From the NCBI RefSeq assembly GCF_018977255.1, contig NW_024704742.1, positions 51,896,001 to 51,960,000 on the forward strand: a stretch of DNA of 64,000 bases. Direction: 5' to 3'. Source of the DNA: Callorhinchus milii. Lineage: Eukaryota. The notes beneath the pieces were generated by a model. That model was not told the origin of the DNA and did no database searches. It was given only the letters and a program-made list of their open reading frames with translations. Made by a program: the position numbers and the translations under genes. Positions 2,688 through 57,322 of the stretch are shown piece after piece (the stretch's first letter is position 1; every line of letters begins with the position of its first letter).

Positions 2688-3010
2688 TAATAATAATAAT
2701 CCTTGCATTTGATATAGCACTTTTCACATCTTCTAGACGTCTCAAAGCGCTTCAATGAATAGACTGTAAAGTGAATTGACTGTATATATTTGTGGACGAA
2801 ATGCGGCAGCCAATTGCGCACAGCAGTGTCCCACAGACAGTCGTGGATTGAAAATGACCGATTTATTTTTTTTATTTTTTTCTTGAGGGAATATTATCAG
2901 GCGTGTGGAGTAAGGAAATTTGCCCAAGGTTTCACCCTGCCAGGAATCGAACCTAGGTCTCTCACTTGCAAAACGAGTGCTCTAACCACTGAGCTACAGG
3001 ACTACAGGAC
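2688..3010 (-). mobile_element. Full-length SINE (same family)
   Basis: (TAA)n tail at left, Deu core, tRNA head ending ...ACTGAGCTACAGGAC. Confidence 0.88.
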
Positions 3011-12532: not shown

Positions 12533-12875
12533 GAAATAATCTTTGCATTTGAAATAGTGCCTGATCACGTCTTCAAGATGTCTCAAAAGCACTTCACAGA
12601 ATATACTGTAAATTGACTGAATATTTTGTGGGCGAAAAGCAGCAACCAATTGAGCACAGCAGTGTCCCACAAAGTTTTTTTTAAATTGAAGAGATTATTA
12701 TCCCCAGAAAAGCGATTCGCCAAACGACTAAGAACTGGGTTCCTATTTATTGCTGGGTAAACAGAGGCATGTGGAGTAAGTAAACTTGCCCAATGTTTTG
12801 CCCTGCCCGGGAATCAAACCCAGGTCCTCTCGCCTGTGAGGCAAGTGCTCGAACCACTCAGCTACAGGACTCCAC
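12533..12875 (-). mobile_element. SINE, longer variant with extra internal segment
   Basis: Same tail, core and head plus an internal CCCCAGAAAAGCGAT...TGCTGGGTAAACAG segment. Confidence 0.85.
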
Positions 12876-14699: not shown

Positions 14700-14940
14700 C
14701 CAGGGGTAATAATTTAAAAAATAAAAATGTGGTCACTCAATCCACGATTAGATATGTTTGTGGGACACGGCCGTGCACAATTCGCTGCCACGTTTCTCCC
14801 ACAAAATACACAGTCAATCTACTTTATATTCTACATAATCTACAATATACAATTTATAATCTACAATATATTCTGTGAAGCGCTTTAAGACATCTCAATG
14901 ATAAGGTGCTATATCAAATGCAAGGATTGTCCATTATGAT
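14700..14940 (+). mobile_element. SINE 3' half with small internal duplication
   Basis: TTTGTGGGACAC...CACAATT core and AAATGCAAGGATT tail; ATAATCTACAATATA occurs twice. Similar 3' SINE fragments at ~7798-7940(-), 27250-27360(+), 31050-31250(-), 36640-36850(+), 40400-40610(+), 47310-47445(+), 49283-49390(+), 63905-63955(+). Confidence 0.75.
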
Positions 14941-23799: not shown

Positions 23800-24480
23800 G
23801 TATTCTGAAGAAGCGGCTTGAGACGCCTCGAAGACCGCGACGAGGCGCTGTATCAAATGCCAGAGGGTTATTATTATTATTGCTATTGTTGTTGTTGTTA
23901 TTGTTACAGAAACAAAGCCCGGTTGGTTGGGGGCATGAACCCGCCCAGCCCGGCCACGCCGAGCACCTGGGGGGGGGGGGCTCGTGGAGCGGCGGCGAGC
24001 AGTTCCGGGTGATGGTTCGTGCGGTGGCTGTTTCCTGGGTTAGAGGTCCCGGGCCGGTGTGAGGGAGAGCCGAGGCGCGCACACACACACACACACAGCG
24101 GGTGGACACATGTCAGCCGAGGCCGACACCATGGTGCCTGAGGCCGGCGCGGCCAACGCGGGGCCCGGCGATGACGAGGAGCACTGGCTGTACGGAGGTG
24201 AGACGGGACACCGCGAGAGGCTGAGCCGCGGCCTTCACGCCGGGTATCGGGACACGCGAGGCCGCGGGCTGCCCCGGCACCAGGCCCCGGGCACCAGGCC
24301 CCGGGCTCGGCGGGGACGGCCTGTGGGCGTCCCGGTTCTGCCGGGGCCAGGGCTCGGCCTCGGTGAGGCTTACAGGGCCGGGCGGCAGGTGGGGGCGGAC
24401 AGAGGAGGCGCCGCTGTTACTCTCTCTCTCTCTCCCGGGACTCGGTTACCTGAACCGGCGACATGACCTGAGGCTTGTGA
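23800..24480 (+). promoter_or_regulatory. CpG island over FIP1L1 promoter / exon 1
   Basis: GC- and CpG-rich segment around the ATG at 24110. Contains a G-run (~23968-23980) and (CA)9 at 24080-24097. Confidence 0.7.
24110..24197 (+). CDS. FIP1L1: FIP1L1 (pre-mRNA 3'-end-processing factor FIP1) coding exon 1
   Basis: MSAEADTMVPEAGAANAGPGDDEEHWLYG carries the conserved Fip1 N-terminal WLYG motif; donor AG|GTGAGA; 88 nt, phase 1. Confidence 0.93.
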
Positions 24481-24496: not shown

Positions 24497-25800
24497 ATGC
24501 CCTGTCCTGCCTCCTGCCCTCTCCTGCCCTGCCCTGCCCAGCCCTGTCCTGCCTCCTGCCCTGCCCTGCCCAGCCCTGTCCTGCCTCCTGCCCTGCCCTG
24601 TCCAGCCCTGTCCTGCCTCCTACCCTGTCCAGCCCTGTCCTGCCTCCTGCCCTGCCCTGTCCAGCCCTGTCCAGCCTCCTGCCCTGCCCTGTCCAGCCCT
24701 GTCCTGCCTCCTGCCCTGCCCTGTCCTGCCCTGTCCTGTCCTGCCTCCTGCCCTGTCCAGCCCTGTCCTGCCTCCTGCCCTGTCCTGCCTCCTGCCCTGT
24801 CCTGCCCTGTCCTGTCCTGCCCAGCCCTGTCCTGTCCTGCCTCCTGCCCTGTCCTGCCTCCTGCCCTGCCCTGTCCAGCCCTGTCCTGCCTCCTGCCCTG
24901 CCCTGTCCAGCCCTGTCCAGCCTCCTGCCCAGCCCTGCCTCCTGCCCTGTCCAGCCCTGTCCTGCCTCCTGCCCTGTCCAGCCCTGTCCTGCCTCCTGCC
25001 CTGCCCTCTCCTACCCTGTCCTGCCTCCTGCCCTGTCCAGCCCTGTCCAGCCTCCTGCCCTGTCCAGCCCTGTCCAGCCTCCTGCCCTCTCCTGCCCTGC
25101 CCTGTCCTGCCTCCTGCCCTGTCCAGCCCTGTCCTGCCTCCTGCCCTGTCCAGCCCTGTCCTGCCTCCTGCCCTGCCCTCTCCTGCCCTGCCCTGTCCTG
25201 CCTCCTGCCCTGTCCAGCCCTGTCCTGCCTCCTGCCCTGCCCTCTCCTACCCTGTCCTGCCTCCTGCCCTGTCCAGCCCTGTCCTGCCTCCTGCCCTGCC
25301 CTGTCCAGCCCTGTCCAGCCTCCTGCCCTGTCCAGCCCTGTCCAGCCTCCTGCCCTGCCCAGCCCTGTCCTGCCTCCTGCCCTGTCCAGCCCTGCCTCCT
25401 GCCCAGCCTGCCTCCTGCCCTGCCCAGCCTGCCTCCTGCCCTGCCTGTCCTGCCTCCTGCCCTGCCCGCCTCCTGCCCTGCCCAGCCTGCCTCCTGCCCT
25501 GCCCAGCCTGCCTCCTGCCCTGCCCAGCCTGCCTCCTGCCCTGCCCAGCCTGCCTCCTGCCCTGCCCAGCCTGCCTCCTGCCCTGCCCAGCCTGCCTCCT
25601 GCCCAGCCCAGCCTCCTGCCCAGCCCAGCCTCCTGCCCAGCCCTGCCTCCTGCCCAGCCTGCCTCCTGCCCAACCATGCCTCGTGCCCAATCCAGCCCTG
25701 CCCTGCCCAGCCTGCTCTGCCTCCTACCCAGCCAAGCCTGCCCTGCCCAATCCAGCCCAGCCAGTCTTGCTTGCTGCCCAGCCCAGCCTACCCACCCTCT
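24497..25800. repeat. Minisatellite-like array of CCTGC/CCTGT/CCAGC/CCTCCTGCC units in FIP1L1 intron 1
   Basis: ~1.3 kb, C-rich on +, almost CpG-free. A regular 21-bp unit TGCCCAGCCTGCCTCCTGCCC runs over ~25480-25605. Confidence 0.95.
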
Positions 25801-30257: not shown

Positions 30258-30388
30258 GTGCTGACCTCTCTGATTACTTCAATTACGGATTCAACGAGGA
30301 GACTTGGAAAGCTTACTGTGAGAAACAGAAGCGATTGAGAATGGGACTTGAACCTCTTCCTCCTTCCTCAACAACAAATCGAATCACA
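30258..30388 (+). CDS. FIP1L1: FIP1L1 coding exon 7 (Fip1 domain core)
   Basis: [44 protein letters not shown] is the hallmark Fip1 motif; ttttcag| ... CA|GTGAGT; 131 nt. Confidence 0.97.
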
Positions 30389-31348
30389 GTGAGTTTTCTT
30401 TGAACTTTGAGAACTGTGAGCAGCAGCATTGGCTTGCATGATGTAACACATACTTAGTGTGTAACCTGCCATGCCATCCAATAAATTGCTGCCACGCTGT
30501 TTCTCCAAGAAACAACTGGTCAATCATTATAGTAAGAATTGACTTTCAAGTTGTTTTAACTTCTTCAGTAAAATAAATAGGGTACAGAGAGTACTTGGAC
30601 CAGGTGGAAGTATTCCTGATTGGTAACAGTTCAGTCCTAATTTAATTTGAGCCTTAGCTAGTTATGATAGGGTACATAGTAACAATTTTCATTGGTCAGA
30701 AATGAATGAGAGGGTGGAAACTTAAAGTAAGCACAAAAAGAATTAATGTGGAGGTTACAAAAAAATCTTTACCTAAAGAGTGATTGGAATGTGGCACAAA
30801 CTAGTATGAAGTAGAATCCATCAATTTTAAAATAAAATTTGATAAATGCTGGAGAGCAGGAATATTAAAGGGTATGCAGTGCGAGCAGGAGAACGGGATT
30901 ACATTTGGTGTTTTATGGTGGAGAAAAGCACCAGCGCAGATTTGAAGTTACCAGTAATCTGCTTTGTGCTGCGCTATTTTATCATTTGAACAAATGCCTT
31001 TCCCTGTGTTATTTACTGAACAATTCAGAAAGCTGGAAAATAATATAATCCTTGATATAGTCAGGAGGAAGCCTCTAAGCACTTTGGAGGATATATTGTA
31101 AAGTGCAGTCACAGTGTATTGAACACAGCAGCTAATTTACATAGAACAATGTCCCACAAACAATCATGAAGTGAATGCCCAATGATATTTGAACGAATAT
31201 TTGGCCAGGATACCAGAACAATTCTCTTCTCGTTTTGCATTGTGGAATCTTAAACAATAAGGAATAAAAAGTTTATTTACAACAAACTAGTAGTTTTTTG
31301 GCCTTGTGCTTCACTTCAGTAATATGAAGTTTTTTTAAAATCTTTCAG

Positions 31349-34117: not shown

Positions 34118-34286
34118 GTACTTGGTGATCATGGAGCAGTAGAATTTGTTAACAGCAACAATCCAACGAAGCGGCCTCCGTTTCTTCCTCCAGGGGCACC
34201 TCCCCTTCACATGACTGGGCCACCTCCACCATTCCTACCCCCTCCTCCACCTGTCAGTGCCACACCTCCTCTTCTTCACCCACCAG
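34118..34286 (+). CDS. FIP1L1: FIP1L1 coding exon 10 (Pro-rich)
   Basis: ttttccacaaaag| ... AG|GTGAGA; 169 nt; [56 protein letters not shown]. Confidence 0.92.
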
Positions 34287-36149
34287 GTGAGAGTTGAACA
34301 TTTGCCTTTTGCACAAACCCAATTGTTTTTAGTTCAATGGAGTTTAGTTTCACGATTAGCCGCTAGTGGGTGAGGGGATATATATATATAATATATATGT
34401 ATATCCAGGACAAACTCAAATTTCCAGATACTGAGAGAGTTCTGACTTGCTTCTGTTTGGAGTAATACTCTGTTTATAATAATGTTATATGTCATATATA
34501 TACACCTTTTCCTTCACAGCCTGACTCAATCTCCCTAACACAGCTTCATGGAAACCTGTCATTTTGTGTGTTAGAGAATCAGTCAGCCAACATCATTGCA
34601 GGCTCAGTCAGTAACATTGTAATAATAATCATTAGTGCAGGTTCAGTCAGCAATCGACTCCATAAAATCAACGTGGGTTCGGAATATTTTTTTTCCTGGA
34701 TAGCATGATTGTGGTTGTATGAAAGGTATCTGCAACCTTAAAAAACCCACAGATTTGAAGCTGCTTCGACAGTAAAACTATTGTATGTTTGAAGTATTCA
34801 TACCCTGCAGTTTCTTCCGTCTTTAATGAAATTTCTTAATTGAAAATGTATGTTAATATAACAAGGGGAGAGGAGGGCATAGTTCCTTATTGATAGGAAC
34901 AAAGGTACAGTGCCCTGTATATTTTACCAGTATTTACAACACAGTTCTCTTGACATTGGCTTTCCCTGGGGAGCTTCAAATGATAAAATCACAAACCACT
35001 TTTGGCTTTGTGATGGATGGATGAATACAAATGATTTAAGTAACCCAAGGCAAGAAAGGAACGTTGCTATGAATGACTAAATTTTAAGAATGAAAGGGTT
35101 TTATACTCCACAGTAGCTAAGTTAATTTTTTATAATAAATATTAATCTTAATGTGTTGTGTTAGAATTTTCACAAAGGCTTAGCAACCTCTTTCCATGCA
35201 TGGTCCCAATCTGCATATACCATTAAGTTATGTGTATTTGGTTCATACTTGGCAATGTTTTAATTGTCTTTTGGCCAGAGCTTTAACTTCAAAGCAGTTT
35301 CTAAAATAGAATTTAAAATCTGCTAGGTTCAATGAAAACAACTGCTGTTACCTATGAATGATATATCAGAGCCAAAAAATGTTGAATCACTACAAATGTA
35401 AAACATCCTGCTGAATACTCTTTGAAATGGGTATTGAATGCAGCCCTACTTTAATTAGACTTTACTTTATTGACTTTCAAGTTTATGGTGCTCATGTTTT
35501 AGTCAGCTTTATTAAAAAATAGTCAAATCTTGTACTTTTGGTTTATACAGGTTCTGCTCCACATGTTTAGCAAATAGATGCAGTTCTTCTCTGGGAACTG
35601 TACTAAAATATCTAGCTTGTTCCTGTACAAGTAGGTGCTTGTCCTGTAAGGAGAAAATAGTATTGTGTTTATTTTTCTCATAGCTGAACTTTTATCAGGT
35701 TTGACTACTGTTAACGTTTTGAGCTAAATATGTGGATTTTTGGTATTTCAAGCAGAGATTGCTTGAAGTGAATTTCAGTGTTTGGGCTCAGACACATGTG
35801 TCCAGTCAGCACTACAACAATTAGCAAACGTTCTTTCAGGTATTGGCTTTGTTTACACTAGAATTTACTCCGCAGCCCTGTTAATACGTGGTTGTTGAGA
35901 TCCGTAAAATCCCAACCTGTGCTGCAACAAGGTGCGATCACCAGTCAGGGCTTCAGCATCCTCATATGACTGATCGCAGGACATGACATCAATGCACATG
36001 TGTGGAATGCCAGATAGCTTTCTGCTCTAAAAATTGCAGATTTCCAGGTCTCTCCTGTCATCCCATACAGTATGCCCTTGTGTGCAAAAAGGCTTTGTAA
36101 TACAAAACCAAACCCAACTTACCACAGTTCAAGCAGCTGTGCTATAATG

Positions 36150-36560
36150 GTTGAATAGATGAGGAATTATGTTTCTTAGAGTGGAGGAGGTTAAGGGATG
36201 ATTTGATTGAAGTATCTAAACTGAAAGGAATTGGCAGGTTAGGTAGCAAATGACTGTTCCCAATGGTAGAAGAGATTCATTACAAATATAGCCTTACAAT
36301 CAGACAAAGACAATTAACTGAGACTGGGAACCATTTTACCACAGGATTGTGAAGATGTGGAATGTTTAATCCCAGAAAACTAAGATGGAATTGGTAGGGT
36401 TGTTTAAAATCGAGATAGACAGAGGTAAGAATGTTTAGGGTAAGGGATACGGCCAAATCTCCAGGATTAATAGATCTGCCAAGATCTAATAAAACTGATG
36501 GAACAGGCTACATGTACTGAATGGCCTCCTCCTGTTCCCGTTTCCCTATGTTTCTAATTG
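36150..36560 (+). mobile_element. CR1 LINE 3' fragment
   Basis: GGAGGAGGTTAAGGGATGATTTGATTGAAGT, GTGAAGATGTGGAATG, end ...ACTGAATGGCCTCCTCCTGTTCC typical of CR1 3' ends. Similar pieces at ~2225-2495(+), 30700-30980(+), 28320-28600(-), 11600-11900(-), 16170-16450(-). Confidence 0.75.
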
Positions 36561-38628
36561 TATGCTTCTTAAACTATAAACCTGTGGGCATGCTTGTGTA
36601 CCCTCAACATTTTGGTGAAGGTGAACTTTTGGAAATGACTATTTCTCCTGGTGCCGTGGCCAACAATCCTCCAGATGAAGTTAGTCATTCACTCCTTGGC
36701 TGTTTGTGGGGAAATTGCTGTGCGCAATTGTGCTACTGCATTTGTCTACAAATACACAGTCACTTCATTTCACAGTAAATCTTGTAATGAATGCACTTGG
36801 AGATGTCATTCCGACATCATAAGGCGCAATGCAAGGAGCATTATTATTTTTATTTTGGACTTGATGAGCATTTCCATAGAAATATTCATCCTTGTTAAAG
36901 TACCTTATTTAAGCGCTCTGAGATGCTACCCTGCATGGAGGGCGCTATATAAGTGCAAGTTATTGTTGTTGAAGGGAATGTGTGTACTGTACAAAACCTT
37001 TTTGGGAATTCTCTCTTTCCCTCACATCCCGCATTGATTTAAGCAATTGCTCAGTTGCTCAAGTAAAACTGAGGATAATGGTAATGTGATGTTAGTCTTA
37101 TAGATGTTAAATCATGAAGTGTAGTGGTTTAATTTTACACCACCGAAGTGAGACTGAACACTTTCCAAAATAAACCTTAACAGTAAACACAGATTTAGAT
37201 TTTTGTAAGCACAATCCAATCCTGGGGCTATCATTATCTTAAAATGTTCCATTCAGGAGCACATGTGTTTGGGTCTTTAGATTTTACCCCAATTTTGAAT
37301 TTACATTAATAAATTTGACCATGGAAGGGTGCAAAATCTATTTTTTTTAAATAATTTTTTGACTAATTGGTAAATCACTAATTTTATAAAATGGGGCGAA
37401 AGGTCAAGTAATTAGTTTTCTGAGTATAGTATTTCAACAAAAGCTTTTGTACCTGCTGTTGTGACATGAAGGATGCACATCTGGCACGCTATTAAAGAAA
37501 TAATAAATTGCTCGCAGCTGTCTTTCCTCTGGTGTTTAACATTTGAAACTGATTGCAACTTCAGATTTCAAACAGTCTTTTGTAGTTCTATTGATCCACA
37601 CAAGTTAAAGTTATCAAATATGACATAAGTTGATTTTGTGAAATTGTAAATTCAGGCTGTGATCTTGTTTTGAATTGTTGTTTGTGCTTTAATTTATTAA
37701 CTAGGAAGTTAGTGTGATCCTGCAACATAAAAGGTTTCTAAGAAGATGTAAATTTAATCATATATATTGTGTGATGAAATAAGCAGACTAATTTGGGGTT
37801 TTAATTTGTAGTATTTCTTAGCAAGATTCTTTGATAAGAAATCCAATTTGGGAAAATACTATTCTGACAGTGTTGCACAATTTAAAACTCTGTTACAGGA
37901 TATGATATTCAGATAGCTAATTAGAAATGTTTACCCTGAACAATTAGACATTCTTGGTGCTTTTAATGTTTTCAGTGGAAGGAATATGAGGAAAAACGAG
38001 AAAGAGAATACATTAGTTATAAGGAAGCATCAAAATGATTTTTTTTAAAAAGCTAAGATAATTGTCATATCTGTTCATGTGTGACTATGTGGGATATTCT
38101 TTGCTCCCAGTTTCTAATATTCCTCTTGATCATGACTATCTAAATAATTTCCTGGTTGCTTGCTTTTTTTCCTTAGTGTTTAGTTACATTGTACTCTGAG
38201 GGAATTCGTTAAATGTTTACAACAACTATTGCATTTAGATAGAGTAGCATCTCGGAGCGCATAATCATAGCATAGTTTGACACTTAGCTGGGAGAAAAGG
38301 GAGGTGACCTTGGCACAGTCAAAGAGAAAAGTCTTTAGGTGTGTTCTGAAGACAGTGCTCCTTTGTCTTTCAATTTTGTTGGGGGCATTTTATTGTGATC
38401 CTCAAGTTGAGGGTTGTTATGACTGGGCAGTTTTGTGTTGTGAAAACTTGGAACTAGGGTGGAATGACTTTTAATGCATCAGTATGAGCCTCATTCAACC
38501 TTAAAATATCAAAATGAAAGGGCAATAGGTATACTAATCTACTGCAACACCAAGTCCCTATCGTTTTCGTTTACGTGCTTAAAAAATATTGTATGTGTTA
38601 TTCATGACTTAATTTTTTTTCTTCCCAG

Positions 38629-39041: not shown

Positions 39042-42035
39042 GTAAATAGACAGACATTCCTTTCTCGATATAATTTTGTGCTGATTTCAGTAAAACCATT
39101 ATAATCTACTTCAAGTATGTTTACTTTTGTTTATGGAATCCCCCCTTACCCACATTCTTTTTATATCCCAGTTTCTGCTGTTCATCAACCAGAAAACCAA
39201 AAGAATCTGAATTTGTCCCAAACTGTGGTGCTGTTTGTGATCCGCTTGTCGGGTTGAGAACATCTCGTGGGTGGCACTGCTTCAAGTTTAGTCTTCGATT
39301 TCATTCATGTCAAAGTTACGAGTTGAAATGTCTCAATTGCTAAAAGGCTACATTCAACGGAGTACAGACTATTTAAATAAATCTACCTTATGAATAAGCA
39401 AATCTTAAATTCTTATACTTTACCATTGTAGGTGATGATCAGTACGTCTCAGTAGTAGAAAAGAGCACTAGGTGCCTCCTGTAGACCAAAACGTGCCGAA
39501 TGAGAGCAGTTAAGCCGTGGCTGTTTCTGAGGCAGAATTTATTGAAATGTCTGTTTTGTTCAATGTAATCCTTTTGGCAATGGAACATTGGTGGTTTTCA
39601 AACATTCCAAAGTCAAAGCTAAACTGAAATTCTGGTTTACATCAGGAAGCAATTCCTGACATTCAAAACTGTGCTTTCAGACCAGCAAAGAGAAGAGATT
39701 TTTAAAGATGTACAGTACTTGGTTTGCTAAAGTTTCTCTGGCAAACAGTTAATGTACAAGAGTTGCTGGATATGAGTTGCTGAAAGATGCTGCAATATTT
39801 AAGGATAATTAATGTGGTCTTTTTAAACTGATGCAATATTTTTCATAAGTGTTAAATTAAATAAAGTCTTAAATTGTGACTATTTTGTCAGCAAACATGG
39901 CAGCCATTTTGAACACAGCAAAGTTCCACCTAATGTGAACAATTAATAATCTGGGGAATTATTAACCAAGACTGGGAGAAACTCCTTCCTTTTTTTGAAT
40001 ATATTTGTATTTTCATTGATTTATATTTGAACAGATGGACAAGTCCAGAGGCAAAGACTAGAGCTTAGACTAGAGGCAAAGTGAATTTCTCTGTATGATA
40101 GAACAATATGCTTTAACCTTAAATTCAGAGGAAAGGCCTCTCCTTTTGCATGCCAACTTCCCAAGTGGCTTCTCTTGTGTGAGATTACCAATTTGTGCAA
40201 ACCTGTGGGCAGTGTTATGTTGTGGGCCTGCCATCACCAGCAACTAAATTTAGATCCACAGCTTCATTTAAGGTATAGGATCTTGAAACCAACAGAGAAA
40301 GGACCTTTCATCCTATTCATTTGGAATAAATCTAAGCCTACGTCATAGAAGGCAAAGAATGTCATGCTAAAGTATTCTGTCGCCAGTTCTTTTGTGCATT
40401 CATTATTTAATGTGTCCTGGGCAACAATCCCCCAAATAAAATTGGTTATTCACTTCATTGCTGTTTGTGGGGATGTTGCTCCATGTAAGTTGGCTGCTGT
40501 GGTCACCCACAAAACCCACATTCACACCACTTTACAGTAAGTATATCCTGCAAAGCATCCTCCTGACGTGAAAAGCACAATATCAAATGTAAAGATTGTT
40601 ATTATTATTGGGTATGTAAATTTGGGCATGTGCTCAGAAGGTATCATATTAAGTTATGAGACAAGAGAAATAACAATTTGCATTTATATAGCGACCCTTT
40701 AGCCAAAGTAGTGTCCCAGAGTGCTTTATGTAGTCCCAGAAGCTAGTATATCTGTGGGAAAAATAAAGATGCATCAATGTAGCTCTGGATAAGTCACCAT
40801 TCGACAGTTTGGTCCAATAAAAAGCAAGTTTCCATTGTGACATTGAATCTCTTTAATAACTTTCTTGAGCAATTTCATTCATAGAACTGAGATGTACAAA
40901 TATTGTTAATATTTAATAAATAATACTCAGATGATGATGAGGTACTTTTGATTCTGCATTAAACTAAGGTCCCATCTGCCTGTTCAGGTTGGTGTTAACA
41001 ATCGCATTGCACTTTTGAAACAGAGCATTTCTCCTAGTGTCTGGTCCAACAATTCTCCAGATTAAATTGGTCATTCACTTCATTTGTTTGTGGGTATTGT
41101 GCATATTCGATGCTGCATTTGTCTCAAACACAGGCACTACACGTTACAGTAAAACACTTTGAGAGTTTTGATAATATCAAATGCAAAGATTATTATTAAA
41201 TATTAAAAAATGCATTAAATGACTGTATACAGGTGCCTAGTTTTAGAACCTTCGTGGTTTATTGGAACCAAAATGAAAGCCTTGTTTCTAACTGTTGGCT
41301 TGCTTGCAAGAGTTCATTCATATGCCACCCACATATGTTGGCTACTGCTGTAGTGTAAAATCTGGTAAATGTGAAGCTGATTTAAAAAGATATTTATAGA
41401 ACAATGGATTAATAGCCCACCTGTTTATAACTTGAGTCTCTTGGATGAGTTTACCTATATTAATGTAGTACCGGAAGGATATATGGAAGTATTCAATCGA
41501 GGATCGGCTTATTGCCAACCTGATGGGTAGTGAGCAAGGTAGCCTGCCAATTCGTAAGTGCGTAGGTTTCCAAATCCAACCTGCACCTTAAATACTAAAT
41601 TGAAGCCAGCCACATCAAACACCACAGTAAAGCTGTGTTGCAGTTCTGAGGAAACTTTGAAGCACATTTAGCACATTTAAAGGCTATGGATTAGAGCAGT
41701 TTATGACTCTGTGGTCCCTAAAATATAGATTTTTGCTTAGCATTTGAGTACTGTTTTCAAAATTGCTGGGAGATTTAATATGGGAGCATTCCCAGATTTT
41801 TCCCCCTGCTTTCAAGAATATTTTTTTTTAAAAAACACTTCTAAAGAAATCACAGTGTAGATGAAAAGTTTAGTTGACAATTTGCGAAATCAGTGGGGTC
41901 AAGTCTGTTCAAAATGGTTTCTTGTTTTTACAATTATTTCAGCCCCATCGAGCAAACGTCAAATTCCCTACTCAGTATAACTATTTCAGACCAGATTTAC
42001 TGAACATTTTACAATCTTCCCTCATTTTTCATGAC

Positions 42036-42363
42036 ATAATAATAATAATAATCCTTGCATTTGATATAGCGCTTTTCACGTCGGGAGGACGTCCCAAAGC
42101 GCTTCACAGAACACACTGTAAAGTGAATTGACTGTATATTTGTGGGCGAACGCGGCAGCCAATTGCGCACAGCAATGTCCCACAAACAGTCTTAGATTGA
42201 AAATGACCAATTTATTATTGTTTTTGGTTTTGGAGGGATTATTATTAGGCTCTGTGTGGAGTAAGGAAACTTGCCCAAGGTTTCGCCCTGTGCCTGGAAT
42301 TGAACTCAGGTCTCTCACTTGCAAAGCGAGTGCTCTAACCACTGAGCTACAGGACTCCACGTG
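42036..42363 (-). mobile_element. Full-length SINE, same young subfamily as 53080-53401
   Basis: The reverse complement aligns end-to-end to the 53080 copy with only about a dozen differences by eye. Confidence 0.9.
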
Positions 42364-44653: not shown

Positions 44654-44671
44654 CTGGCTGCGTGATGTCAG
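44654..44671 (+). CDS. FIP1L1: Candidate 18-nt alternative microexon of FIP1L1 (AGCVMS)
   Basis: cttcccatttgtgctcctttcag|CTGGCTGCGTGATGTCAG|GTAAAT; symmetric phase 1, no stop. Prediction only; not counted among the 16 exons. Confidence 0.4.
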
Positions 44672-46394
44672 GTAAATTCAAACCCAGAGTTAACTATTAT
44701 TTGCTCAACCAGGACTGTGGGAGTATGCATGAAGCAGTGGGAAATCTGATTTGCTTGTTGATGGCCAAGACCAGTTACTCGTCTTTCTCTGCTGCTGCCA
44801 ATCACCAATCCAGACATCTGCCCTTGTTGTCTTTGTTGTGCTATACTGTAAGACACTCGAGAGGAAAATTGATTTGGCAATGGACGTGTAAGCGGGAAGA
44901 CCAGTTGTATATAGTAGGATGTTTTTTTCCAGAGTTAGTTTGATCCATATAAATTGAAGCTGCCGATTAGATCATAAAGGCGCACACTTCAGTGCATGCA
45001 GCATTTACACACCAATATTTTTTCTTTTGTAAATGTTTTATTGCCATTAAGACATTTAATTGAACTAAAATTGTAGGTTTTCTTAGTGTTTGGCATTTTT
45101 TTTTAGTTGTGTTTATTTGGTAAAGCTAACCTATATACGTAGTATTTGATCACACTCCTCCCGAACATTGTATTCTAATCGAGCCCTGCATTTTCATACT
45201 CTGTAGGGAAGGTGAAAAGGATAACTGTATCAGGTCAGACTGCATTAGACATTCACATTGAACAGAAGTGCTATGGCAGGAAGCTGAAAGATAAAATTAA
45301 ATGTATCTAATCTTTGCAATCTCATTGAATATCCTGAAAACTTTTTTTGCCTATTTCCATGCAGTAGGAATTGCAGTTAGACTGAGGGACTCCACCTTGT
45401 GGTTTCTGCATACGCTTAAATGTTAGGACATTGGTTGTGGTGGTTTCTTTATAATATTATAAAGATGTGAAGTTGAAGCTGGGTTTATGCTTTCCACTTG
45501 ACATCACTTTCAAATGAGTCTGAAAACCCTTCAGATAACCAAGTTGATACCAAAGCCAGGTACTTGTTTTATAACGTTATCAAAGAACTGAACATGTGAT
45601 CAGCTCTTTAATAGCATTGACCAAATGTCTGTTTAAAATTCTTTGGTGACTTTCTGAGAGTCTTGAATGGAGAACAGATGAGTGAATCCACTATCATTCA
45701 CATCCGTCTTCAACGTTAGGTGATTTCAGGAGCAGGGCTCTATCTCATCTTATGCTGACTGAGACGCTGTTTCTACTGCACTTTTGGTAAGAGTAGTCAC
45801 TGCCCAAATTGTAAAGATTCATTATGACTGTGTAGTAAAACAGGCAAGCAGCCAAATCATACTAACAAAGAAAAATGGCTACTTCTAATAGCTTGCATTT
45901 ATGTACAAATAAACGAACAGCTCTGCAAACTGTAATTGATTAGAAATTAAGCAAATGTTATATAGGCCAACATGGCCTATAGCAAGGCTACTGTCTGCAC
46001 CGTATCTAACCATGTACCCTGAAGGTGACGGGGGCTAAAAGTTGAAAATCAAATGTGAATACCGACAAGAGCAGCTTGCACTTTTATACAGCACCTTTCA
46101 CATAGCACGAATGTCTTGCAGTGTTTCACAAACCTGACGGGGACCATCTACAACCTGATCAGATGTTTGGATTTCAGCTATTTAGAGGTGATCTGAGATA
46201 ATAAGCTATACTTTTTCACTTCTCGTTTTAATGACCTTTTAGAACTCTGCTTTATATGTGCTCTAAATATATTTTTAATGAAACATCTATTAAATTAACC
46301 AAGGAAATATTACTTCAAGGCCTGAAAAATGTGTTTTGATATTGGAGAAGGATAGTAATGATTGTAATCAATTATATTTCACATCATTTTTCAG

Positions 46395-46635
46395 ATTATG
46401 GTAATTTGACCTATCCCAATATCCCAGTTTCTTCTTCCTGGACAACTCTAATTGATAATAACAATAAGCAGCCTCAGCAGCAGCCACAGCACTGGGATTA
46501 TTATCCCCGGAGAGAGAGGGAAAGGGAACGTGAACGGGATCGCACCAGAGAACGAGATCGTGATCGCGACAGAGAACGAGAACGTGATCATGAGCGAGAG
46601 CGGGACCGGAGCCCCAGTTCAAGTGCTTACAACGG
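46395..46635 (+). CDS. FIP1L1: FIP1L1 coding exon 14 (RE/RD dipeptide domain)
   Basis: tttttcag| ... GG|GTACGT; 241 nt; [21 protein letters not shown]...[48 protein letters not shown]. Confidence 0.94.
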
Positions 46636-53079: not shown

Positions 53080-53401
53080 ACGTGGAGTCCTGTAGCTCAG
53101 TGGTTAGAGCACTCGCTTTGCAAGTGAGAGACCTGAGTTCAATTCCAGGCAGGGCAAAACCTTGGGCAAGTTTCCTTACTCCACACACCTAATAATAATC
53201 CCTCCAAAAACAAAAACAATAATAAATTGGTCATTTTCAATCCATGACTGTTTGTGGGACATTGCTGTGCGCAATTGGCTGCCGCGTTCGCCCACAAATA
53301 TACAGTCAACTCACTTTACAGTATATTCTGTGAAGCGCTTTGGGACGTCCTCCCGACGTGAAAAGCGCTATATCAAATGCAAGGATTATTATATTATTAT
53401 T
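53080..53401 (+). mobile_element. Full-length tRNA-Ala-derived Deu-domain SINE with L2-type tail
   Basis: Head GGAGTCCTGTAGCTCAGTGGTTAGAGC (A box), stem-loop CTCGC-TTTGCAA-GTGAG (TGC anticodon), GTTCAATTCC (B box). Core TTTGTGGGACATTGCTGTGCGCAATTGGCTGCCGCG; tail ...AAAAGCGCTATATCAAATGCAAGG(ATT)n. Confidence 0.9.
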
Positions 53402-57174: not shown

Positions 57175-57322
57175 CAGCAGCAGACGGCGCCACGACAGTG
57201 AAGAGGTAGATGGCCACAAGCGACACAAACATAAGAAGTCCAAGCGAAGCAAAGAAGATAAAGAAGCCAGTGAGGAACGTTCCCAGGAACCAGAGCCCAG
57301 CGAAGCTGCTAGTAGTAACTAG
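57175..57322 (+). CDS. FIP1L1: FIP1L1 last coding exon (16)
   Basis: (CAG)4 acceptor; SSSRRRHDSEEVDGHKRHKHKKSKRSKEDKEASEERSQEPEPSEAASSN*; TAG at 57320-57322. Confidence 0.93.

What the first reader, a model, noticed from the sequence alone, without database searches (positions are those of the whole stretch)
37445..37540. Second intronic poly(A) module with the same unusual sequence signature
Seen in intron 10: TGTACCTGC (37448), ATTAAA (37491), then AATAAATTGCTCGCAGCTGTCTTTCC (37502-37527). The intron 7 module reads TGTAACCTGC ... AATAAATTGCTGCCACGCTGTTTCTCC. The shared flanks go well beyond the hexamer, and neither site lies in a repeat I recognise. Exon 10 read-through stops at once (PPGES*). 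Inference: two related, possibly co-regulated termination cassettes, both upstream of the RE/D exon, forming a tiered attenuation system in a 3'-processing factor gene.
Basis: partly seen in the sequence, partly recalled or inferred. Interest (0 to 1): 0.72.

Follow-up and report, generated by a model that had tools for sequence, protein, structure and literature searches.

The report
Candidate hidden stop site in FIP1L1
An intron of the gene for FIP1, a part of the machine that ends messenger RNAs, carries a well-formed end signal in a chimaera-type fish, but it is likely an ordinary, mostly silent cryptic site, and its short likeness to a second such signal is only borderline beyond chance.

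Summary
Site B has UGUA, tandem AUUAAA/AAUAAA and a CU/GU-rich downstream tract. Exon 10 read-through stops at PPGES*.

The shared signature is weak. It is the best of 741 sense AATAAA pairs, but shuffles reach that score in 5-10% of trials (about 0.004 only if site A is chosen beforehand). The upstream TGTA(A)CCTGC copies are out of register (16 versus 50 nt from AATAAA) and add nothing. Site A folds into a hairpin and may be a decayed SINE fragment; B shows neither trait.

Intron 10 has a near-consensus donor and ordinary length, unlike CSTF3/PCF11 feedback introns, and is spliced out in 4 of 4 runs laid. Use of B was neither shown nor excluded. Conservation was untestable: the only vertebrate locus found is probably the paralogue. 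Zebrafish fip1l1b has one unmapped internal poly(A) site (9-13%), so FIP1L1 attenuation stays plausible. I found no paper on it, and the scan had no FIP1L1 note (only WDR33/RBBP6 analogues).

Verdict: likely cryptic site; two-tier cassette unsupported, not refuted.

The parts
37448..37456 (+). Site B: UGUA (CFIm-type motif) within TGTACCTGC; 39 nt before ATTAAA and 50 nt before AATAAA
   Evidence: sequence
37491..37496 (+). Site B: AUUAAA hexamer; one of 5 tandem A[AT]TAAA pairs on the sense strand of the gene
37502..37507 (+). Site B: AAUAAA hexamer; one of 39 sense AATAAA in the gene
37508..37527 (+). Site B: flank similar to site A; holds a CA at 37515-37516, a predicted cleavage point for AUUAAA
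   Evidence: cleavage position inferred
37518..37538 (+). Site B: CU/GU-rich tract, candidate CstF downstream element (about 24 nt after AAUAAA is the modelled optimum)
   Evidence: sequence; optimum from PMC10651852 passages; function inferred
34118..34286 (+). FIP1L1 exon 10 (proline-rich); donor CAG|GTGAGA, 7 of 9 matches to the recalled consensus
34295..34297 (+). TGA stop reached by read-through from exon 10 (PPGES*)
34287..38628 (+). Intron 10, 4342 nt, GT..AG, spliced out in 4 of 4 runs laid
30258..30388 (+). FIP1L1 exon 7 (Fip1 motif, PF05182); donor ACA|GTGAGT, 5 of 9 matches
30460..30506 (+). Site A (intron 7): TGTAACCTGC, AATAAA at 30480-30485 and flank; UGUA 16 nt upstream; A-rich, poor downstream element
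30415..30496 (+). Predicted hairpin that half-pairs site A's AAUAAA; possible decayed SINE core over about 30483-30534
   Evidence: (z about -3)
46395..46635 (+). RE/D-repeat exon 14, lost from any transcript ending at A or B

Best explanation
Site B is a poly(A)-like signal in intron 10 of FIP1L1 that is likely a cryptic site, likely kept silent or near-silent by efficient splicing, and its likeness to the intron-7 site is likely coincidence on top of ordinary poly(A) grammar. Shown: the motifs, their position, the near-consensus exon 10 donor, and splicing of exon 10 to exon 11. Inferred: CFIm would bind the UGUA, CPSF the tandem hexamers and CstF the CU/GU tract, with cleavage near 37515-37525. 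U1 at the donor and fast splicing would normally win. When splicing or U1 is limiting, a minor transcript would end here with a 3.2-kb composite last exon, coding a FIP1 of about 337 residues (ending PPGES) without the RE/D and arginine-rich tail.
For: The gene has 39 sense AATAAA sites. In human, 98.5% of predicted intronic sites are not expressed (PMC10651852 passage). Best-pair flank scores of 10 or more arise in 6 of 60 and 15 of 300 null sets; BLAST E=1.7. The upstream motif is out of register and the combined score equals the null median. A and B differ in fold (z -2.8 to -3.4 against +0.3 to +0.4). A but not B resembles the local tRNA-headed SINE. The exon 10 donor scores 7 of 9, the commonest value among the 13 donors placed correctly (e1 and e5 were offset by one base and are not counted). 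Intron 10 is the third longest of 15. Contigs join exon 10 to exon 11 in 4 of 4 runs.
Against: A-B is still the top pair of 741, and if A is taken as a prior candidate the match has p about 0.004. B has tandem hexamers (one of 5 such pairs in the gene) and a well-placed CU/GU tract. The host is a 3'-processing factor, a class with several feedback sites. Zebrafish fip1l1b uses one internal site about 20 kb before its end at 9-13% (PMC9937581 tables S21 and S22; intron not identified). Two teleost UniProt models end by read-through after the exon-10 equivalent (P0127 sea bass, P0236 fugu), which may equally be annotation breaks.
Confidence: 0.55

Rival explanations
1. B is a real, selected feedback poly(A) site of the CSTF3/PCF11 type. 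High 3'-processing activity would raise cleavage in intron 10 and lower full-length FIP1, possibly giving a short form without RE/D. The shared flank is incidental.
For: Good anatomy (against the optimum positions). Class precedent. FIP1 promotes early site use (PMC7471841 passage), so feedback would make sense. Internal site in zebrafish fip1l1b. Teleost models ending after the exon-10 equivalent.
Against: The donor is not weak and the intron is not unusually long, whereas CSTF3 intron 3 and PCF11 intron 1 have weak donors. The site lies after 10 of 16 exons. All 8 members of the C. milii protein cluster are full length, 551-586 aa, although a short form could fall in another cluster.
Confidence: 0.25
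2. One reading: A and B are related cassettes whose shared TTGCT...GCTGT flank is read by one factor (for instance a YGCY-binding protein), giving two co-regulated tiers of attenuation.
For: Top pair of 741; p about 0.004 with A fixed. Both local folds can pair the AAU and the following UGC. A has 5 YGCY in 76 nt, a count seen in 7 of 3113 background windows.
Against: Borderline after multiple testing. Upstream motif out of register. B has only 2 YGCY and its hairpin is -3.7 kcal/mol. The extended motif is absent from all 33 fetched loci, though only one of them is vertebrate.
Confidence: 0.08
3. The likeness comes from a common repeat origin: both sites are decayed fragments of the abundant tRNA-headed SINE (recalled name: DeuSINE/SacSINE1 type), in which AATAAA arose by mutation.
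For: A aligns colinearly over about 50-60 nt with SINE copy 14716-14833 and is the top of 2990 non-repeat tiles (56 against 50 for the next unrelated tile). z 2.6-2.9 against two young copies.
Against: That copy was chosen after the fact. A profile of 22 copies gives no nhmmer hit at A or B. A scores 3.8 bits (top 6.6% of 2687 tiles) and B scores -0.7 bits, exceeded by 73%. A SINE origin is open for A (about 35%, my estimate) but has no support for B.
Confidence: 0.07
4. The sites are parts of intronic small RNAs (snoRNA or miRNA hairpin), not poly(A) signals.
For: A forms an 80-nt hairpin and gives a weak SNORD100 match (14.9 bits, E 2.9).
Against: The score is far below the gathering threshold of 58, boxes C and D are both mismatched, and the guide stretch is missing. 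B has only chance-level matches and no fold. 2.4% of 253 local windows fold at z -3 or lower.
Confidence: 0.03

Closest known systems
CSTF3 (CstF-77) intron 3 poly(A) site (Luo 2013, PMC3708835; abstract and passages seen)
   Same: Intronic composite-type site in a core 3'-processing gene; would truncate the product.
   Different: CSTF3 has a very weak donor, a very large intron, vertebrate-wide conservation and shown feedback. Here the donor is near consensus, the intron is ordinary, and conservation and use are not shown.
PCF11 intron 1 PAS1 (PMC6458999, PMC6428223; passages seen)
   Same: Tandem hexamers in an intron of a 3'-processing factor gene.
   Different: PAS1 is in the first, highly conserved intron with a weak donor, and was proven by deletion in human cells and zebrafish. 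B lies after exon 10 of 16.
RBBP6 and PAPOLA intronic sites (named in PMC6428223 passage)
   Same: Early ends that could give non-functional or dominant-negative short proteins.
   Different: FIP1L1 is not in that list, and no short FIP1 protein is shown here.
Cryptic intronic poly(A) sites suppressed by splicing and U1 (PMC10651852 passages)
   Same: Signal-like sequence in an AT-rich intron behind a good donor.
   Different: None shown; this is the class I file it under.

Membership tests
Autoregulatory intronic poly(A) site of a 3'-processing gene (CSTF3/PCF11 type) | Host gene encodes a core cleavage/polyadenylation factor | tested here: met
   Exon 7 peptide 100% identical to C. milii FIP1, PF05182
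Autoregulatory intronic poly(A) site of a 3'-processing gene (CSTF3/PCF11 type) | Hexamer with upstream UGUA and downstream GU/U-rich element on the sense strand of an intron | tested here: met
   UGUA is farther upstream (39-50 nt) than the 10-20 nt optimum
Autoregulatory intronic poly(A) site of a 3'-processing gene (CSTF3/PCF11 type) | Weak 5' splice site and unusually large or early intron | tested here: not met
   CAG|GTGAGA, 7 of 9 by a simple match count (no MaxEnt available); 4342 nt, third longest of 15 introns
Autoregulatory intronic poly(A) site of a 3'-processing gene (CSTF3/PCF11 type) | Sequence conserved across vertebrates | tested here: inconclusive
   Only vertebrate locus is L001, probably the paralogue, with no match to A or B; all 7 runs holding the stretch carry one species label
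Autoregulatory intronic poly(A) site of a 3'-processing gene (CSTF3/PCF11 type) | Transcripts end at the site | tested here: inconclusive
   Only contigs were available; they cannot show ends
Autoregulatory intronic poly(A) site of a 3'-processing gene (CSTF3/PCF11 type) | Use responds to the factor's level, and deletion raises full-length mRNA | not testable with these tools
   Needs perturbation experiments
tRNA-headed SINE fragment | Significant match to a family profile | tested here: not met
   B: no nhmmer hit, -0.7 bits; A: no nhmmer hit, 3.8 bits with a suggestive single-copy alignment
C/D-box snoRNA or other Rfam family | Covariance-model score at gathering threshold, intact boxes | tested here: not met

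The most novel reading that the evidence does not exclude
FIP1L1 limits its own output through two intronic poly(A) sites that share a motif right after AAUAAA, read by one factor or by partial hairpin occlusion of the hexamer, with site A exapted from an ancient SINE. The second tier would release a FIP1 that keeps its CPSF30- and PAP-binding parts but lacks the RE/D tail and acts as a dominant damper.
Probability: 0.08. Interest if true: 0.7.

Novelty: new member of a known kind. Interest (0 to 1): 0.27.

Why it matters
FIP1 level sets proximal versus distal poly(A) site choice genome-wide. It is not among the factors with described intronic feedback in the passages I read (CSTF3, PCF11, RBBP6, PAPOLA). 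A used and conserved site here would add FIP1L1 to that circuit, and a motif shared between two such sites would be a handle on how they are coordinated. On present evidence it is one of dozens of signal-like sequences in the gene, so the value is a cheap, well-defined test rather than a discovery.

Tried and rejected
Genome-wide motif search: no genome held.

RNA use: no listed holder of 37200-37760 is on record as RNA; this is no evidence either way. X13, X14 and X16 have spliced contigs but no contig on 30389-30677 or 37036-38480; contigs show presence only. X5 covers most intron bins, B included, at contig depth about 4-12. No poly(A) loose end is among the 13 loose ends shown, and 22 were not shown. 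The first laying at 80% likeness was swamped by repeats, and runs X8 and X9 (other organisms) did not hold the gene. A small depth in X13 over 30384-31047 at 80% vanished at 98%.

Conservation: the metagenome scan covered 26 of 64 parts and gave 33 loci, 1 of them vertebrate (L001). Its exon 7 peptide matches the 'FIP1-like' second gene of sawfish and birds (P0130, P0142). I take it as the paralogue by sequence likeness, with no tree built, so its lack of A and B is not counted. Genome contigs gave none. Short database isoforms (bat P0039, chicken P0128, ruff P0086, sea bass P0127, fugu P0236) end in these introns, but DNA cannot be inferred from peptides and the models may be annotation breaks.

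Pfam scans failed on frame errors; the domain call comes. Rfam weak hits were rejected. B has no stable fold.

Literature: eight searches, judged from listings and abstract openings, showed no paper on FIP1L1 intronic polyadenylation. FIP1L1 was absent from the supplements held for PMC5928244 and PMC6428223, and not seen in a poly(A)-site context in the shown places of PMC6458999 and PMC7815847. PMC7954529 lists 7 FIP1L1 rows in its site table; I saw 2, without coordinates. PolyA_DB, PolyASite and subscription papers were not searchable, and the PMC9937581 supplement was cut when stored, so human intronic FIP1L1 sites may already be catalogued.

Full report
Setting. The window holds a 16-exon gene on the + strand (ATG at 24110, stop near 57320). 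Its exon 7 peptide is 100% identical to Callorhinchus milii FIP1 and 96% identical to most shark and ray FIP1 proteins listed (PF05182), so this is FIP1L1 of a chimaera-type fish. The head-to-head neighbour looks like SCFD2, but that name is recalled and was not confirmed by a call. No whole genome is held.

Observation. All quoted motifs are present at the stated places, and read-through from exon 10 gives PPGES*. Site B (intron 10) reads UGUA at 37448, AUUAAA at 37491, AAUAAA at 37502, CA at 37515 and a CU/GU-rich tract over about 37518-37538. It lies 3.2 kb after the donor and 1.1 kb before exon 11. Site A (intron 7) has UGUA at 30442 and 30460 and AAUAAA at 30480, 91 nt after the donor, with an A-rich downstream region. 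Against the positional optimum in PMC10651852 (passages: UGUA 10-20 nt before the hexamer, GU/CU about 24 nt after), A has the better upstream side and B the better downstream side.

Is the likeness beyond chance? Only borderline. BLAST gives 22 of 27 identity, E=1.7. Anchored at the hexamer, A-B scores 10, the best of 741 pairs among the gene's 39 sense AATAAA; 9 of 7260 pairs window-wide score as high, several of them repeat copies. Null sets reach 10 in 6 of 60 draws of 39 random positions and in 15 of 300 block dinucleotide shuffles that had only about 22 sites each, so p is about 0.05-0.15. The upstream TGTA(A)CCTGC adds nothing. It sits 16 nt from the hexamer in A and 50 nt in B, 68% of pairs have an upstream local score as high, and the combined score is reached in 40 of 60 null sets.

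Are A and B alike in other ways? No. A folds into an 80-nt hairpin that half-pairs AAUAAA (z -2.8, 1 of 200 shuffles; best of the 39 sites), though 2.4% of 253 local windows fold at z -3 or lower. B does not fold (z +0.44); its local hairpin is -3.7 kcal/mol. A aligns colinearly with the core of a tRNA-headed SINE that is common in the window (tRNA heads; family name DeuSINE/SacSINE1 recalled). It is the top of 2990 non-repeat tiles against one copy chosen after the fact, but scores only 3.8 bits against a profile and gives no nhmmer hit. B shows no SINE likeness. Rfam gives nothing credible at either site.

Use and conservation. Neither could be settled. Only assembled contigs were offered, which cannot show RNA ends; what they show is normal splicing across intron 10. 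All 7 runs that hold the B stretch carry one species label. The one vertebrate locus fetched (L001, bird-like) matches neither site, but its exon 7 peptide groups with the second, 'FIP1-like' gene of sawfish and birds, so it is probably the paralogue and is not counted. Indirect hints that FIP1L1 genes end early: zebrafish fip1l1b has one internal site about 20 kb before its terminal sites, at 9-13% (PMC9937581, two supplement rows), in an intron I could not identify. Database models of sea bass and fugu end by read-through after the exon-10 equivalent, and those of bat and chicken in the intron-7 equivalent. These models may be annotation breaks.

Mechanism. Most likely (0.55) B is a cryptic site. 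Its signals could recruit CFIm, CPSF and CstF (inferred), but the donor CAG|GTGAGA is near consensus (7 of 9), the intron is of ordinary size, and in human 98.5% of predicted intronic sites are not expressed. If used, it would yield a transcript with a 3.2-kb composite last exon, coding about 337 residues without the RE/D and arginine-rich tail. The main rival (0.25) is a genuine feedback site of the CSTF3/PCF11 kind, independent of the shared flank.

Comparison with what is known. It would work like CSTF3 intron 3 (PMC3708835, abstract and passages) and PCF11 PAS1 (PMC6458999 and PMC6428223, passages). It is not filed as a member. The weak-donor feature was tested and not met, conservation and use are inconclusive, and feedback is untestable here. 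Other papers seen as passages only: PMC7471841, PMC7948361, PMC9934614. PMC4407891 had no hit for the terms used. Eight searches showed no paper on FIP1L1 intronic polyadenylation, but poly(A) atlases were out of reach. The scan's own notes hold no FIP1L1 intronic site, only unchecked analogues in WDR33 and RBBP6.

Verdict. Interest 0.27. The novel reading has probability about 0.08 and would merit 0.7.

Noticed in passing
window 39336-39581 (+), intron 12: A long imperfect stem (42 long-range pairs, arms 39336-39383 and 39535-39581; z -3.64, 0 of 100 shuffles; z -2.74 and 8th of 120 windows) encloses a candidate 40-nt cassette exon, 39432-39471, with a fair acceptor and a weak donor. Joined to exon 12 it would give LER followed by two stops, so it is a poison-exon candidate for NMD-based control of FIP1L1. 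Inclusion was not tested.
   Followed up: partly
window 30415-30496 (+), intron 7: Site A lies in a predicted hairpin that half-occludes AAUAAA, is YGCY-rich (5 in 76 nt), follows one of the two lowest-matching donors (5 of 9) and may be a decayed SINE core. It looks a better regulatory candidate than B.
   Followed up: partly
window 36909-36932 and 38241-38264: A 24-nt, 88% complementary inverted pair (left arm in a SINE-tail-like repeat) flanks site B, 1.3 kb apart. 36810-37110 is the best-folding 300-nt window scanned (z -5.65), probably from inverted repeat ends.
   Followed up: no
window about 44655-44672 and 46120-46185: C. milii protein isoforms carry small alternative segments (AGCVMS; VFHKPD...FRD) just before the RE/D exon; the positions are read by eye.
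   Followed up: no
L001:5649-15021: A bird-like FIP1L1-like gene with the same exon layout, probably a second vertebrate paralogue also present in sawfish (P0130, P0142).
   Followed up: partly
window 24498-25713: A 1.2-kb pyrimidine-rich GC tandem array (CCTGC units) in FIP1L1 intron 1.
   Followed up: no
window 2932-3003, 12799-12870, 42291-42351, 53086-53157: The Rfam tRNA hits are heads of SINE copies, not tRNA genes.
   Followed up: yes
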